From: a virus
Taxonomy: Duplodnaviria > Heunggongvirae > Uroviricota > Caudoviricetes
Length of the DNA stretch: 37,308 nt
Direction: 5' to 3' (one strand)
Virus record (IMG/VR): IMGVR_UViG_2684623059_000004
Made by a program: the position numbers and the translations under genes. Numbering within the stretch: the first letter of the stretch is position 1; every line of letters begins with the position of its first letter. Under the pieces are notes generated by a model. The model was not told the DNA's origin. It saw nothing but the letters and a program-made list of their open reading frames with translations, and searched no databases. Of this stretch, positions 29,548-33,040 are shown in pieces.

Positions 29548-31962
29548 TTAATACAGGTTCCGCCACTTATCATCTTCCTTCAGACGCTGGTTCCGATAGA
29601 AGATACGCAAGCCTGCTCCTGACGGAATACTGCCGCCGCGAAGGAGTAAATCGACCTCTTTCTCGCTGCCATCAAATCCTCTGGACTTCAGTTCATAGAC
29701 GAGCTGCTGTCGTTGATGGTCTGTAATTCGCTGTTTGTAGTCTCTACGCCGTTTCGGTTTCACCAGACGTAACCTTGCAGCCAGTTCCCGGCGCTCTTTT
29801 TTGTTCATACTGTGCAGGTAATCGTGCAACTCCTTGTCATCCATGCAGGTAATATCCGTTCTGGTGTCCCCATCAGCTGATTTATCTTTCTCCTGTTGGT
29901 TCAAATTTTCAGCAAGGGGACAGTTATTGCCACGAGTCCAAGGGGCGCAAGCGCCCTGGTCGGCTGCCGCCTCCTGAACGTCAACGGCCTTACGAACCAT
30001 TTTCCACTTCACTGCATGAGTGCAGATCTTGCCCTCTGCAATGGGTGACCAGATGCCATAAATACGAATGCCGTGATCGCCATAGGCTGTCGGCTCTTCG
30101 TTGATTTCATAAGCGGTTCTGATCAAGTGATATTTGCGGGGAACCAACACGCCGCCCTGCTTCATAATGTAGGTGGCAAAACAGCCAGCATCAGCAGCAG
30201 CCAGAATGGCATCAAGGCGCGGGTTATCCAGTACCGGAGCACCTGCTTTTTTGTCACCCTGTTGCCTTGCAGCCTGACCAGCCAGCAATCGCAGTTCACG
30301 GTAAGCCTGACGCCCCGGAATGCCAAAGAAGCGGAATTGCTGAACACGATGCAGAGACGCCCAGGCATTAACGTATTCAGCGTTATCACGCAGAGATTTA
30401 CCCGTTTCCTTGCTGATCTCGCCAGCCAGACCACGCCCGTCAATGTTCTTACTGATATATTTCGCGATGTAGCTTGTCGGCGTTCCTTTGCGCGGGTTAA
30501 TCAACTCAGACTTAAAGCGCGGCCCAGTGTTATTGCCCAGCTCCTCGCGGTCTTCACGGATGGCAAACTTACGCAGTAATGCAGTGATGGCGCGGCGGTC
30601 TTTTTTGCGCATAAAACACAACAGGTGCCAGTGAACTGTACCGTCATGATGCGGCTCAGCCACCCGCACGCCATACCAGCGCAATCCGGCTTTGTGCATC
30701 GCCTTACGAAATGCAGCAAACATGCCGACCAGATAGTCGCTGCTTTGTCTTACCGTCGAGTTTGTCCAGGTCGGGTTGGGTCTGCCGTTATTGAGCGTGG
30801 AATGGAAACGCGACGGACAGGTGATAGTGTAGAAAACGGCGCAGTCACTGCGCATTTCCGCGATAAGCTCCAGACCTTTAACACAGGCCATCATCTCATT
30901 GCGGCGATGCGCCGGGTTGCTGCTGCTGGCGTTTACCACATCTTCCATATCCAGCGTGTCGCCGTCTTCGTTCACCAGTTCATGAGAACGGAAAAACTCC
31001 AGCGACTTACGGCGCTGCTCACGTTTATGCATCACGGCTTCATAGCTGACATAGGGGGATGCTTTTTTGCTGACCAGGCAGACAGCACGCAACTGCTCTT
31101 CCCGCCATTCACAACGCATCTTCCATAATTTCCGATACCACCAGTCGGCACACAACATACGCGCCAACGAACCCGGAATGAGTTCATAGGGCACGGGTTT
31201 ACGGCGGTTTCTTTTCCGACGGAGTTGCTCAAACGCAGGCGGAATAACATCCAGACGCAGGGTTTCCGCTGCCACCTTTTCCCATGTTTTGCGGATTTCT
31301 TCTGGCTTAACGTCATCGGTGGCATACAAATCACCACAAGCGGCATCAAGGCACATGCTCATATGCGCAGCGACAAGGGTAGACAGGCGCTTCACCTGAT
31401 CCTGACTCATTTCAGGCAGGATAAGCAGGCCATCCAGCCCTTCATGGCTTGCCATAAAGCGAAAAGAAGTGGATAGCTGACAGTCGCGGACATGCTCCAG
31501 TCGTTCCAGACATGGCTTAATCGTCTCACGCAAATAGCGGGAATAAGCCTTTGGCCTGCCCAGGCTGCTGAAATATTCAATACGTTGCATCAGCGGCTTG
31601 CTGATATGGGAGGGCTGGGCGTTGACGTCCGCCAGAATGACCATATCCGGATTAAAATGCTGCTGCTCATGCGCCAGCTTTGCCCGACTAATGAGCTTAT
31701 CCTGTTCCATTTCGCGCTGGACAGGATCACGGGATTCATTAAAGAAATAACGCTCCCAGACCTGATCACTCAGCGCCTCACGGCGCAGCTGTTCCTGCTC
31801 GTTATCGGCAGCGTACAGAGTGATCAGGTTTGAAAGCGTAGAAACCGGCGCAACTTCCACCGGGTCCAGATAAGGGTTAATGGCCTTTTTCGGGCTGTTC
31901 CATGAGAACGATGCGGCAGCTTCGTTAAAGCCGCAGCAGTTGTTCATATCGGCATGACTCAT
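29548..31962 (-). CDS. A: replication initiation protein A
   Basis: 804-aa ORF in the P2/186 A position; start codon overlaps the dam stop. Confidence 0.8.
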
Positions 31963-32816
31963 GCACGTACTCCGTACACGGCAGAACTATCCACGCCACG
32001 CGAATAATCAAATCCCACCCAGCAGCGCGGCCCGGAAACAGCAATGATTTCTGTTGCTGATTTACCCTCGCCAGCTGCCACACCGATGCTGCGTTTTGCC
32101 TTGATGTAGTGGTGAGTAAAATTGCGATACAGCGAACGGATCAGGGATGTGTCACTGTTAGAAACAATGACCGGATGTCCTTCTGATGACCGATGTTCAA
32201 GAACAGATGCCAGGTGATACTGGTCATCTTCAGTGAAGCCGTCAGTGTGATAGCCGGAAAACGTACCGTCATACGGCGGATCGCAATACACCACATCCCC
32301 CGCCTTCAACATCGCCAGCGTTTCATCAAAGCTGGCGCAGATAAACGTTGCTCGCTGGGCCTTTTCTGCAAATGCGCGAATTTCTTTTTCAGGGAAATAC
32401 GGATTTTTATAATTACCGTAGGGAATGTTGAAATGCCCGCTCTTGTTATAGCGACATAAACCACGGTAACCGTGACGATTGAGATACAGGAAATATACCG
32501 CTTTCATGAAATCAGTAATTTCAGTTGAGTAATTAAACTCCTGCCTTATGTTGTAATAAGCCACCTCCCTGTTTGCGATCTCAAATAAAACTCTGGCGCG
32601 AGATATAAACGATTCACAATCAGCGGCAACCTTTTTATAGATGTTGATTAAATCAGGATTAATATCCGCAACCAGATAGCTGGGATAATCCGTCTCCATC
32701 ATCACAGCACAGGAACCCGCGAAAGGTTCAACCAGTCGCGGGCCAGCAGGAAGATGTTTTTTCAGTTCGGACATTATGGCAGTTTTATTTCCCGCCCATT
32801 TCAGGATGGTGCTCAT
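31959..32816 (-). CDS. dam: DNA adenine methyltransferase
   Basis: KWAGNK N-terminus, FxGxG-like AdoMet motif (EPFAGSCAV) and DPPY catalytic motif; start taken at Met21, overlapping the upstream stop as ATGA. Confidence 0.85.
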
Positions 32817-33040
32817 ACAGCACCTCCGTTGTAATGTTTGCCTTTCAGCTCTGCGATTTCCTGACAGGTAATGCAAAGCTGCACACCCGGAATGGCACGG
32901 CGGCGTGCTGGCGGAATTGGCGCTTCACACTCAATGCAAAGCACGCGGGACACGCCCGGCGTTTTGGCACGGGCAGCACGGATATGGCGTTGGCGTTCTT
33001 CTTCAACGCGCTGCTGTACGAGATCCATTGCATCAGCCAT
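32813..33040 (-). CDS. TraR/DksA-family C4 zinc-finger protein
   Basis: 75 aa with CIECE...CITCQ four-cysteine pattern. Confidence 0.6.
   Translation of the reverse strand: MADAMDLVQQRVEEERQRHIRAARAKTPGVSRVLCIECEAPIPPARRRAIPGVQLCITCQEIAELKGKHYNGGAV

What the first reader, a model, noticed from the sequence alone, without database searches (positions are those of the whole stretch)
31959..33040. Dam methylase translationally coupled between a TraR-like zinc-finger gene and replication gene A
The dam start (32816) overlaps the TraR-like stop as ATGA and the dam stop overlaps the A start as ATGA (31959..31962), so dam is embedded in the early replication operon. A phage-borne Dam could protect against GATC-cleaving restriction, alter host methylation-dependent regulation or help control replication timing.
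Basis: partly seen in the sequence, partly recalled or inferred. Interest (0 to 1): 0.45.

Follow-up and report, generated by a model that had tools for sequence, protein, structure and literature searches.

The report
Prophage Dam methylase upstream of replication gene
This is the well-known orphan Dam (GATC adenine) methylase of a Fels-2/186-like P2-family prophage of E. coli, sitting in the early replication operon exactly as annotated in over a thousand genomes, so the finding is correct but ordinary.

Summary
On the minus strand, a TraR/DksA zinc-finger gene (32813-33040), a 285-aa Dam-family methylase (31959-32816) and P2-type replication gene A (29548-31962) follow one another with ATGA stop/start overlaps.

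It is already known. The same module is annotated in Fels-2 (STM2730), phage Cartapus and a K. pneumoniae prophage, and occurs in 1,230 of 5,426 complete E. coli genomes. The exact protein is on 249 public contigs. The window is an E. coli prophage beside rybB that carries retron Ec67, the element type whose Dam function was reported in 1990.

The enzyme is 47% identical to E. coli Dam. DPPY and the GATC-contact residues are conserved, and dN/dS is 0.11-0.24. Start/stop overlaps are kept in 65/66 (left) and 60/66 (right) related loci. Phage 186's record states that A translation needs translation of the upstream ORF.

New here: eight Dam-carrying Peduoviridae genomes have near-expected GATC (O/E 0.74-1.06). 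Five Dam-less ones, including P2 and 186, avoid it (0.13-0.54). This fits the phage Dam methylating replicating DNA and relieving classical GATC counter-selection. Nine Dam-less relatives without depletion are a caveat.

Low interest; already known.

The parts
33040..33279 (-). DUF2732 ORF (homologue of P2 orf80 / 186 orf79). Its stop overlaps the TraR start by 1 nt (TAATG).
   Evidence: Pfam PF10809 E 1e-28; phrog_128; sequence read.
32813..33040 (-). TraR/DksA-type C4 zinc-finger gene, 75 aa (CxxC...CxxC at C35/C38 and C56/C59).
   Evidence: PF01258 E 3e-11; TIGR02419 65.8 bits against cut-off 59.7; phrog_54 E 1e-30. Same-length gene in 186, P2 and Fels-2.
32813..32827 (-). TraR/dam junction: SD GGAGG (32827-32823), a 6-nt spacer, then ATGA (32816-32813). 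Predicted hairpin GGAGGUGCU/AGCACC.UCC with the AUG in its loop.
   Evidence: Fold z = -2.83, 2 of 200 shuffles as stable. ATGA in 65/66 related loci. The same junction precedes orf82 in 186.
31959..32816 (-). dam: 285-aa orphan D12-class N6-adenine DNA methyltransferase, predicted GATC-specific.
   Evidence: PF02086 E 1.7e-76; TIGR00571 above cut-off; E 3.8e-73 to E. coli Dam structures 2g1p/4gol; PADLOC best hit 'oMTase' E 8e-111; dN/dS 0.11-0.24.
32271..32282 (-). Codons for catalytic motif IV, D179-P-P-Y182 (GAT CCG CCG TAT).
   Evidence: DPPY conserved in 101-102 of 103 homologues.
31959..31980 (-). dam/A junction: SD GGAG (31973-31970) and ATGA (31962-31959). A predicted 8-bp hairpin, CGUGUACG (31980-31973) paired with CGUGCAUG (31967-31960), holds the A start codon.
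   Evidence: NTGA overlap in 60/66 related loci.
29548..31962 (-). Gene A: P2-type rolling-circle replication initiator, 804 aa, with an HUH-type HWH motif and YIAKYISK tyrosines. The ori nick is predicted inside it at about 29940.
   Evidence: PF05840 E 4e-126. Alignment with P2 and 186 A proteins and their annotated nick sites.
35166..35284 (.). cI-apl intergenic switch region, the presumed site of the early lytic promoter that drives the operon containing dam.
   Evidence: Position relative to cI (35285-35860 +; PF07022/PF16452) and the apl-like ORF (34944-35165 -), by analogy with 186 pR/pL. The promoter itself was read by eye and not confirmed.

Best explanation
The gene encodes a functional, GATC-specific, orphan Dam-family N6-adenine methyltransferase. 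It belongs to a Fels-2/186-like P2-family (Peduoviridae) prophage of E. coli.

Expression. dam occupies the variable 'slot' between the TraR-like zinc-finger gene and the replication initiator gene A, in the CI-repressed early lytic operon. It should therefore be made only after induction or infection, together with A. Its translation is chained to the TraR-like gene upstream, and its own translation delivers ribosomes to the occluded start of A (termination-reinitiation, or hairpin melting).

Action. Made in step with the initiator, the enzyme methylates the GATC sites of the rapidly replicating phage DNA (113 in this prophage), which the limited host Dam would leave un- or hemimethylated. 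Full methylation shields phage DNA from whatever penalises unmethylated GATC in enterobacteria: MutH nicking and mismatch repair, and/or methylation-sensitive GATC restriction.

Shown versus inferred. Shown here: gene identities, the overlaps and their conservation, conservation of catalytic and GATC-contact residues, purifying selection, and the GATC-content contrast. Inferred: timing of expression, actual coupling, GATC specificity of this particular protein, and the selective agent.
For: Identity. PF02086 E 1.7e-76. TIGR00571 321 bits against cut-off 115. 47% identity over 258 aligned residues to E. coli Dam.

Residues. DPPY is conserved, as are the equivalents of EcoDam K9, Y119, L122, R124, P134 and Y138. 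By my knowledge of the EcoDam-DNA structure (Horton et al. 2006), these read GATC. They are conserved in 100-103 of 103 homologues.

Orphan status. The neighbours are TraR and A, with no nuclease, and the best PADLOC model is 'orphan methyltransferase'.

Selection and spread. dN/dS is 0.11-0.24 against relatives of 64-98% identity. The module is in 1,230 of 5,426 complete E. coli genomes, and the exact protein is on 249 contigs.

Prior demonstration. The window carries a retron Ec67-family RT (PADLOC RT-Toprim I-C E 1e-217; PGAP name). One member of the Dam's 90% cluster is named 'retron EC67 DNA adenine methylase'. [quoted passage not shown]

Coupling. Overlaps are conserved in 65/66 and 60/66 loci. 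The 186 record notes that A translation needs translation of the upstream ORF. Predicted hairpins sit over the dam SD and the A AUG. In relatives with an empty slot, a 7-10-codon mini-ORF still bridges TraR to A with overlapping stops and starts.

Action on phage GATC. GATC O/E is 0.74-1.06 in 8 Dam-carrying Peduoviridae genomes (7 named genera plus this window). It is 0.13-0.54 in 5 Dam-less ones, where GATC is always the most depleted 4-bp palindrome. In IMG/VR loci the median is 0.80 (n=63, Dam+) against 0.25 (P2-type, n=77) and 0.345 (186-type, n=76).

Background. GATC avoidance in enterobacteriophages and MutH toxicity on unmethylated GATC are cited in PMC5014478 and PMC4687349.
Against: No enzymatic, methylome or expression data for this gene can be produced here, and the 1990 paper is not in the held library.

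Motif I is F-A-G-S-C, where EcoDam has F-V-G-A-G. EcoDam N120 and R137 are replaced by R and N/H. All three changes are invariant or nearly so in the clade, so an altered kinetic or sequence preference cannot be excluded.

Nine loci with the same type of A gene lack any detectable Dam in the fetched 10-21 kb, yet show no GATC depletion (O/E 0.55-0.94; Mann-Whitney p = 0.31 against Dam+). Dam presence in the individual genome is therefore not required for the GATC-rich state. Possible reasons are recent loss, mosaic exchange, or a gene outside the fetched part.

The GATC contrast is not phylogenetically corrected. It also does not tell MutH from restriction as the selective agent.

Hairpin z-scores are weak for the A junction (-1.63 over 120 nt; about 0 over 57 nt). 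Both genes have their own SD, so independent initiation is possible.
Confidence: 0.8

Rival explanations
1. Pure anti-restriction device. The phage Dam exists to pre-methylate progeny DNA against MboI/DpnII-type enzymes that cut unmethylated GATC in the next host. MutH, SeqA and replication play no part.
For: Protection from restriction is the classical role of phage orphan methyltransferases (general knowledge; stated for P2-like Burkholderia phages in PMC3091744). The slot upstream of A holds other methyltransferases in relatives: a C5-cytosine MTase in SW3, and two MTases each in SEN5 and ev129. That looks like an anti-restriction cargo site. The GATC depletion of Dam-less relatives is equally what restriction pressure would produce.
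Against: The host flank is E. coli-type (ybjL-like gene, RybB). E. coli is Dam+ (general knowledge), so phage DNA already receives host methylation. The literature retrieved attributes enterophage GATC avoidance to MutH acting on undermethylated DNA. My data do not distinguish the two agents.
Confidence: 0.3
2. Epigenetic regulator. The phage Dam changes the methylation state of specific GATC sites in promoters and thereby switches gene expression. Candidate targets are the phage lysis-lysogeny switch, the retron promoter and host genes.
For: Two GATCs lie in the 119-bp cI-apl switch region (35211, 35245). One of them is in the spacer of a by-eye pR candidate. Three GATCs lie within 23 bp (28080-28102) and a fourth at 28035, upstream of the retron msr-msd/RT.
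Against: By my own Poisson estimate (not a tool result), at 3.3 GATC/kb about 0.4 such triplets and about 0.4 sites per 119 bp are expected by chance, so neither cluster is significant. Only 15 of 5,426 E. coli genomes hold the full retron against 1,230 with dam, so dam is not a retron accessory. dam sits in a CI-repressed operon, so it should be silent in the lysogen (inference).
Confidence: 0.1
3. Replication-timing control. Dam methylation at or near the phage origin inside gene A (SeqA-type sequestration, or methylation-dependent nicking by A) sets when rolling-circle replication fires.
For: dam is directly coupled to A. Three GATCs (30025, 30075, 30121) lie 85-180 nt upstream of the ori nick predicted by homology at about 29940.
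Against: Three sites in about 400 bp against about 1.3 expected is not significant (my estimate). P2 and 186 replicate from the homologous ori without any Dam gene and with almost no GATC. No GATC lies in the conserved nick sequence itself.
Confidence: 0.07
4. The overlaps are just compact phage gene packing. Dam and A are each translated independently from their own Shine-Dalgarno sites, and dam is a passively carried moron.
For: 4-nt ATGA overlaps are the commonest overlap in prokaryotic operons (general knowledge). Both genes have good SDs. Fold statistics at the A junction are weak.
Against: Overlaps persist across unrelated junction sequences: ATGA, GTGA, and 20-nt overlaps. A mini-ORF relay replaces dam when the slot is empty. 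The 186 record reports dependence of A translation on the upstream ORF. dN/dS of 0.11-0.24 argues against passive carriage.
Confidence: 0.15

Closest known systems
Dam methylase of the retron-Ec67 (Retron-Eco2) 186-related prophage of E. coli (Hsu, Inouye & Inouye 1990 PNAS; Dodd & Egan 1996 Virology)
   Same: The window contains a retron Ec67-family RT-Toprim gene next to the packaging genes in a 186/Fels-2-like prophage. It also contains a 285-aa Dam whose 90% cluster includes a protein named 'retron EC67 DNA adenine methylase'. PMC7826664 describes the Ec67 element as a 34-kb unit containing a Dam methylase ORF.
   Different: None established. The original paper is not held, so residue-level identity with the 1990 sequence and its assay details were not checked. 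The best complete-genome matches to the retron are 99.5% identical, not 100%.
Fels-2 STM2730 (Salmonella Typhimurium LT2) and its equivalents in phage Cartapus and the K. pneumoniae Kp52145 prophage
   Same: Identical gene order: DUF2732, then TraR/DksA (228 bp), then dam (858 bp), then A, with overlapping junctions. These are annotated as DNA adenine methylase.
   Different: Fels-2 Dam is only 73% identical, and its dam/A junction is GTGA rather than ATGA. Cartapus Dam is 98% identical.
E. coli housekeeping Dam (PDB 2g1p, 4gol)
   Same: Same D12 fold family and 47% identity. DPPY and the GATC-contact residues K9, Y119, L122, R124 and P134 are conserved.
   Different: It fails the NCBIfam equivalog for chromosomal Dam (286.7 bits against cut-off 441). 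Motif I has a G-to-C change, N120 becomes R and R137 becomes N. There is a 22-aa C-terminal tail with no counterpart. It is phage-borne, in a repressed lytic operon, rather than constitutive.
Phage 186 orf84-to-A translational coupling, with P2 orf83 in the same slot
   Same: Same position between the TraR-like gene and A, and the same ATGA overlaps. The 186 record states that translation to the end of orf84 appears necessary for A translation.
   Different: The slot genes are unrelated. 186 has an exonuclease-like ORF, a DUF5405 ORF and a PAPS-reductase-like ORF. P2 has a DUF5405 ORF. Both phages lack Dam and are strongly GATC-depleted.
Dam methylases of other coliphages (T4/T2 Dam, P1 Dmt)
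   Same: Phage-encoded orphan GATC adenine methylases of the same Pfam family. T4 Dam structures match at E about 1e-17, and a P1-like Dmt matches at 36% identity.
   Different: Much more distant in sequence, and encoded in virulent or plasmid-prophage genomes with different expression contexts. P1 uses methylation for pac cleavage (my knowledge), whereas P2-like phages package from cos.

Membership tests
Dam family (D12-class, alpha-group) site-specific DNA-(adenine-N6)-methyltransferase | Full-length match to the family profile above the curated cut-off | tested here: met
   PF02086 257.8 bits against cut-off 22, profile 1-253/253. TIGR00571 321.4 bits against 114.85.
Dam family (D12-class, alpha-group) site-specific DNA-(adenine-N6)-methyltransferase | Catalytic motif IV (D/N)PP(Y/F) | tested here: met
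   D179-P-P-Y182; conserved in 101-102 of 103 homologues.
Dam family (D12-class, alpha-group) site-specific DNA-(adenine-N6)-methyltransferase | AdoMet-binding motif I FxGxG and the acidic residue after beta-2 | tested here: inconclusive
   F32-A-G34-S-C36: the second Gly is Cys, invariant in 103/103 clade members. The D54 equivalent (D51) is conserved. T4 Dam also lacks the second Gly (my recollection). Likely tolerated but not proven.
Dam family (D12-class, alpha-group) site-specific DNA-(adenine-N6)-methyltransferase | GATC-reading residues of EcoDam (K9, Y119, L122, R124, P134) | tested here: met
   K6, Y117, L120, R122 and P132 in the query; 100-103 of 103 homologues conserved. The residue roles come from my knowledge of the EcoDam-DNA structure.
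Dam family (D12-class, alpha-group) site-specific DNA-(adenine-N6)-methyltransferase | m6A methylation of GATC demonstrated | not testable with these tools
   Only indirect support. The title of Hsu et al. 1990, cited in PMC7826664. GATC-specific relief of avoidance in Dam-carrying relatives.
Chromosomal (housekeeping) Dam equivalog, NF008152 | Score above the equivalog cut-off | tested here: not met
   286.7 bits against cut-off 441. It is a phage paralogue, not the host dam.
Orphan methyltransferase (no cognate restriction enzyme) | No nuclease gene adjacent | tested here: met
   The flanking genes are the TraR-like gene and A. The best PADLOC hit is oMTase PDLC03729, E 8e-111.
TraR/DksA C4 zinc-finger family (phage/conjugative plasmid TraR subfamily) | Profile match above cut-off and four Cys in a CxxC...CxxC arrangement | tested here: met
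   TIGR02419 65.8 bits against 59.7. PF01258 43.5 bits against 24.9. C35/C38/C56/C59 in the translation. RNA polymerase binding was not tested.
P2 gpA rolling-circle replication initiator | Phage_GPA domain, HUH-type metal motif, paired active-site tyrosines | tested here: met
   PF05840 420.7 bits. H444-W-H446 and Y498...Y502 are invariant in the alignment with the P2, 186 and Fels-2 A proteins.
Translationally coupled gene pair | Same strand, stop/start overlap, SD inside the upstream ORF, conserved in relatives | tested here: met
Translationally coupled gene pair | Downstream translation depends on upstream translation | not testable with these tools
   Only the precedent in the 186 record and the predicted occluding hairpins.

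The most novel reading that the evidence does not exclude
The gene's main benefit may not be anti-restriction. It may instead protect rolling-circle replication intermediates from the host's own methyl-directed machinery (MutH nicking, SeqA binding). Coupling dam to the initiator gene A would then make methylation capacity scale with replication. On this reading, gaining or lacking a Dam in the slot upstream of A decides whether a P2-family lineage tolerates about 4 GATC/kb or is driven to about 0.5-1 GATC/kb. Dam+ and Dam- Peduoviridae would then be a natural experiment for the old question of why enterophages avoid GATC.
Probability: 0.35. Interest if true: 0.45.

Novelty: already known. Interest (0 to 1): 0.15.

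Why it matters
As a finding it adds nothing new. The gene is annotated in Fels-2, in many sequenced phages and in about a quarter of complete E. coli genomes, and Dam function of the Ec67 element was reported in 1990.

Its residual value is comparative. Within one phage family infecting the same Dam+ hosts, the eight complete genomes that carry a Dam have near-random GATC content, while the five Dam-less genomes, including P2 and 186, are 2- to 8-fold depleted. This is indirect evidence that the phage enzyme acts on phage GATC sites in vivo. It also gives a tractable system for testing what penalises unmethylated GATC: a prophage dam knockout, and P2/186 with restored GATCs, each in mutH+ and mutH- hosts.

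The analysis also shows that the position just upstream of gene A is a general methyltransferase cargo slot, with the translational relay to A preserved.

Tried and rejected
1. Primary literature. The 1990 PNAS paper (PMC55184) is not held. Searches for STM2730, Fels-2 dam, P2-like Dam and prophage-encoded Dam in Klebsiella gave no functional study of this gene. PMC7826664 only speculates about it.

2. Internal signals. The promoter/terminator scan of 28800-36200 found nothing that splits the operon. It found only a weak 5-bp hairpin inside the TraR-like gene and an antisense promoter-like match inside dam, with fewer promoter hits than in shuffles. Rejected as signals.

3. A 186-type tM1 terminator early in A. 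None was detected in the window, and the N-termini of the A proteins are not alignable enough to map it.

4. Regulatory GATC clusters (retron promoter, cI-apl region, near ori). They are present but not beyond Poisson expectation by my estimate, so they are kept only as passing notes.

5. Structure prediction and fold search were not run. 47% identity to solved EcoDam makes them uninformative.

6. A strict 'Dam present means GATC tolerated' rule. Nine Dam-less loci with the same A type are not depleted, and no other methyltransferase was found in the fetched parts. The rule is rejected as absolute and kept as a lineage-level association.

7. Rfam found no retron or other RNA family in the operon, only RybB in the host flank.
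Full report
**1. Observation**

- A 75-aa ORF (32813-33040) ends in TGA at 32815-32813. This overlaps the ATG (32816-32814) of a 285-aa ORF.
- That ORF ends in TGA at 31961-31959, which overlaps the ATG (31962-31960) of an 804-aa ORF running to 29548.
- A further 1-nt overlap (TAATG) links an upstream 79-aa ORF (33040-33279) to the 75-aa ORF.
- Shine-Dalgarno sequences lie inside the upstream ORFs: GGAGG with a 6-nt spacer for the 285-aa ORF, and GGAG with a 7-nt spacer for the 804-aa ORF.

**2. Gene identities**

- The 285-aa protein is a D12-class adenine methyltransferase. Pfam PF02086 gives E 1.7e-76 over the full profile, and NCBIfam TIGR00571 'dam' gives 321 bits against a cut-off of 115.
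- It matches E. coli Dam crystal-structure sequences at E 3.8e-73, with 46.9% identity over 258 aligned residues.
- It fails the equivalog model for the chromosomal Dam (287 bits against 441). It is therefore a phage paralogue.
- The 75-aa protein is a TraR-subfamily C4 zinc finger (TIGR02419 above cut-off, PF01258).
- The 804-aa protein is a P2 gpA-type replication initiator (PF05840, E 4e-126).
- The upstream ORFs are DUF2732, DUF5347, a fil-like ORF, CII (PF06892) and an apl/cox-like ORF. They face a divergent 186-type CI repressor (PF07022 + PF16452).
- This is the early lytic operon layout of phage 186.

**3. Where the window comes from**

- The left end encodes a ybjL-like permease (Asp-Al_Ex + TrkA_C, 561 aa) and the RybB sRNA (Rfam, 106.5 bits).
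- A complete P2-like prophage follows, and its integrase runs off the right end.
- Between the portal gene and an orf97-like gene lies a 586-aa RT-Toprim type I-C retron reverse transcriptase (PADLOC E 1e-217). Its msr-msd region is recognisable. PGAP names the matches in E. coli genomes 'retron Ec67 family RNA-directed DNA polymerase/endonuclease'.
- The window is therefore an Ec67-retron-carrying, 186-related prophage of E. coli.
- PMC7826664 summarises that the Ec67 element is a 34-kb unit containing a Dam methylase ORF. [quoted passage not shown]
- I could not read that paper. My recollection that it describes a 285-residue ORF 44% identical to E. coli Dam is unverified here, but it matches what I measure.
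- One member of the Dam's 90%-identity cluster is named 'retron EC67 DNA adenine methylase'.

**4. How common and how well known**

- The identical order DUF2732, TraR/DksA (228 bp), dam (858 bp), A is annotated in Fels-2 (STM2730), in phage Cartapus and in the K. pneumoniae Kp52145 prophage table.
- The 1.2-kb module is found in 1,243 of 5,426 complete E. coli genomes. 1,230 of them have at least 80% coverage, and PGAP annotates it correctly.
- The exact protein is on 249 public contigs, and its 90% cluster has 4,038 members.
- The full retron occurs in only 15 of those genomes. dam belongs to the phage backbone, not to the retron.

**5. Is the enzyme likely active and GATC-specific?**

- DPPY (179-182) is conserved, as are the equivalents of EcoDam K9, Y119, L122, R124, P134 and Y138. 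These are the residues that contact GATC in the EcoDam-DNA structure (my knowledge of Horton et al. 2006). They are conserved in the query and in 100-103 of 103 full-length homologues.
- Three clade-invariant differences exist: G39 to C in motif I, N120 to R, and R137 to N/H.
- Pairwise dN/dS against relatives of 64-98% protein identity is 0.11-0.24, indicating purifying selection.
- No nuclease gene is adjacent, and the best PADLOC model is 'orphan methyltransferase'.

**6. The slot and the coupling**

- In 186 the same TraR-like gene is followed, through the same GGAGGTGCT..ATGA junction, by orf82, orf83 and orf84, and then by A. In P2 it is followed by orf83 and then A.
- Other Peduoviridae genera place other cargo there, often methyltransferases:
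  - Dam plus a second MTase in ev129;
  - Dam plus a C5-cytosine MTase in SW3;
  - two MTases in SEN5;
  - Dam in phiT5282H.
- In 66 IMG/VR relatives with dam, the left junction is ATGA in 65 and TTGA in 1.
- In the same 66, the dam stop is overlapped by an ATG/GTG in 60. In 52 of these it opens directly into a gene-A-length ORF of at least 300 codons. In 8 it opens into a shorter ORF of 250-439 codons, apparently an extra gene between dam and A.
- Four more loci have a 20-nt overlap.
- Where the slot is empty, a 7-10-codon mini-ORF bridges the TraR stop to the A start with overlapping codons.
- The curated 186 record says that 'translation to end of orf84 appears necessary for translation of A protein', and it places a terminator early in A that acts when A is not translated.
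- RNA folding predicts an 8-bp hairpin containing the A start codon, and a hairpin pairing the dam SD. The z-scores are -1.63 and -2.83 over 120 nt. Analogous local hairpins occur at the A start in nine phages with unrelated sequences, although each is individually weak.
- Coupling is thus well supported by comparison and by precedent, but it is not demonstrated for this gene.

**7. What the enzyme does for the phage**

The prophage has 113 GATC sites, an O/E of 0.74 by a maximal-order Markov model. Fels-2 has 117 (O/E 0.76). P2 has 25 (0.20) and 186 has 14 (0.13), and in both of these GATC is the most depleted of the 16 4-bp palindromes.

Thirteen complete genomes from enterobacterial hosts separate perfectly:

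| Group | Genomes | GATC O/E |
|---|---|---|
| Dam carriers (7 named genera plus this window) | 8 | 0.74-1.06 |
| Dam-less (P2, GMG73, 186, Kp4852-2, Ec520873) | 5 | 0.13-0.54 |

IMG/VR loci (gene A plus or minus 10 kb) show the same pattern:

| Locus type | n | Median O/E | Range |
|---|---|---|---|
| Window-type A with Dam | 63 | 0.80 | 0.65-0.97 |
| P2-type A, no Dam | 77 | 0.25 | 0.10-0.49 |
| 186-type A, no Dam | 76 | 0.345 | 0.14-0.71 |

- GATC avoidance in enterobacteriophages, poor methylation of phage DNA by host Dam, and MutH toxicity on unmethylated GATC are established background (McClelland 1984 and Deschavanne & Radman 1991, as cited in PMC5014478 and PMC4687349).
- The contrast therefore fits a phage Dam that methylates phage GATC sites during lytic replication and lifts that counter-selection.
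- Caveat: nine loci with the window-type A but no Dam or other detectable methyltransferase in the fetched part are not depleted (O/E 0.55-0.94; p = 0.31 against Dam+).
- Further caveats: the comparison is not phylogenetically corrected, and MutH cannot be told apart from GATC restriction as the agent.
- I did not find this specific Peduoviridae contrast in the held literature. That is not evidence that it is unpublished.

**8. Rivals**

- An exclusively anti-restriction role remains possible.
- The regulatory and replication-timing ideas have no statistical support. The GATC groups in the cI-apl region, upstream of the retron and near the predicted ori (about 29940) are within chance expectation by my Poisson estimate.
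- A decaying or passively carried gene is contradicted by the selection data.

**9. Verdict**

- The feature is already known and routinely annotated, and its function was reported in 1990 for the Ec67 element, the type of element carried here.
- Interest is low.
- The one item worth keeping is the Dam/GATC-avoidance contrast within the P2 family, as a testable handle on an old question.

Noticed in passing
window 25981-28170 (minus strand): Complete retron Ec67 (Retron-Eco2) type element in the cos-proximal cargo site. It has an RT-Toprim type I-C gene (586 aa from the ATG at 27741; [14 protein letters not shown]...) and an msr-msd region at about 27745-27915, flanked by CACGCATG.../...CATGCGT inverted repeats. 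Only 15 of 5,426 complete E. coli genomes hold it at full length.
   Followed up: partly
window 28035-28102: Three GATC sites within 23 bp (28080, 28091, 28099) and a fourth at 28035, upstream of the retron ncRNA/RT and flanking a GC-rich hairpin (GGCCCGCCAGTTCTGGCGGGCTTTT). This could be a Dam-sensitive promoter. By my Poisson estimate it is not beyond chance.
   Followed up: partly
P2 (L009+L002), 186 (L010+L003), L251-L259, L011-L250: Family-wide contrast. Peduoviridae carrying a Dam gene have GATC O/E 0.74-1.06, while Dam-less ones (P2, 186, GMG73, Kp4852-2, Ec520873) have 0.13-0.54, with GATC the most depleted 4-bp palindrome. Nine Dam-less loci related to the window are exceptions.
   Followed up: yes
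L258 3392-5522; L259 26561-28550; L256 22790-24648; L257 12112-13083: The position immediately upstream of gene A is a recurrent methyltransferase cargo slot in several Peduoviridae genera: Dam plus a C5-cytosine MTase, two MTases, or Dam plus a second MTase.
   Followed up: partly
L072, L075, L077, L078, L082, L084, L085 (just after the TraR-like stop): Where the slot is empty, a 7-10-codon mini-ORF (for example VSFGASH*) overlaps the TraR stop (GTGA in six of the seven loci; L072 has ATAA at that position, so no start codon there). In most of these loci it ends in TGATG at a downstream ATG that is probably the A start, which would preserve a start/stop relay. The A start itself was not confirmed.
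   Followed up: partly
window 29439-29454: Perfect LexA-box-like palindrome CTGTTTATATTTACAG between gene A and a 62-aa ORF (29207-29395, phrog_698) that is followed by a DinI/Tum-like ORF (28963-29268, PF06183). This is probably the SOS-inducible antirepressor operon, as with p95-tum of 186.
   Followed up: no
window 16245-17180 (+): A 311-aa FRG-domain protein (PF08867) matching the PADLOC candidate defence family PDC-S15 (E 8.5e-32). It is encoded opposite to the tail genes between the V and S homologues, the same place as the nonessential orf30 of P2.
   Followed up: partly
window 10146-10718 (-) and 10740-11602 (+): Serine invertase (Resolvase + HTH_7, E 3.5e-53) next to tail-fibre genes with oppositely oriented ORFs. 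This is probably an invertible host-range segment, as in Fels-2, Mu and P1.
   Followed up: no
window 936-2779: Host flank: a ybjL-like transporter (561 aa) and the RybB sRNA (2701-2779, 106.5 bits). The prophage begins just 3' of rybB, which probably serves as its attachment site.
   Followed up: partly
window 35876-36067 (+): A 63-aa Cys-rich ORF with an N-terminal signal-peptide-like segment and no family match. It sits between cI and int, where 186 has no gene, and may be a lysogenic-conversion cargo.
   Followed up: no
window 28172-28903 (-): A 243-aa homologue of the phrog_1353 family, the same length and position as 186 orf97. The 186 record says orf97 blocks 186 infection when expressed from a plasmid.
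   Followed up: no
window 35828-35856 (-): Strong sigma-70-like match (TTAACA-17-TATAAT, 11/12) on the minus strand inside the 3' end of cI, antisense to cI. The region as a whole has fewer promoter-like hits than shuffles, so its significance is unknown.
   Followed up: no
proteins P0008, P0009, P0094, P0059, P0063: A few database proteins fuse this Dam to Phage_GPD or Phage_GPA domains. These are probably frameshifts, rearrangements or assembly artefacts in other genomes.
   Followed up: no
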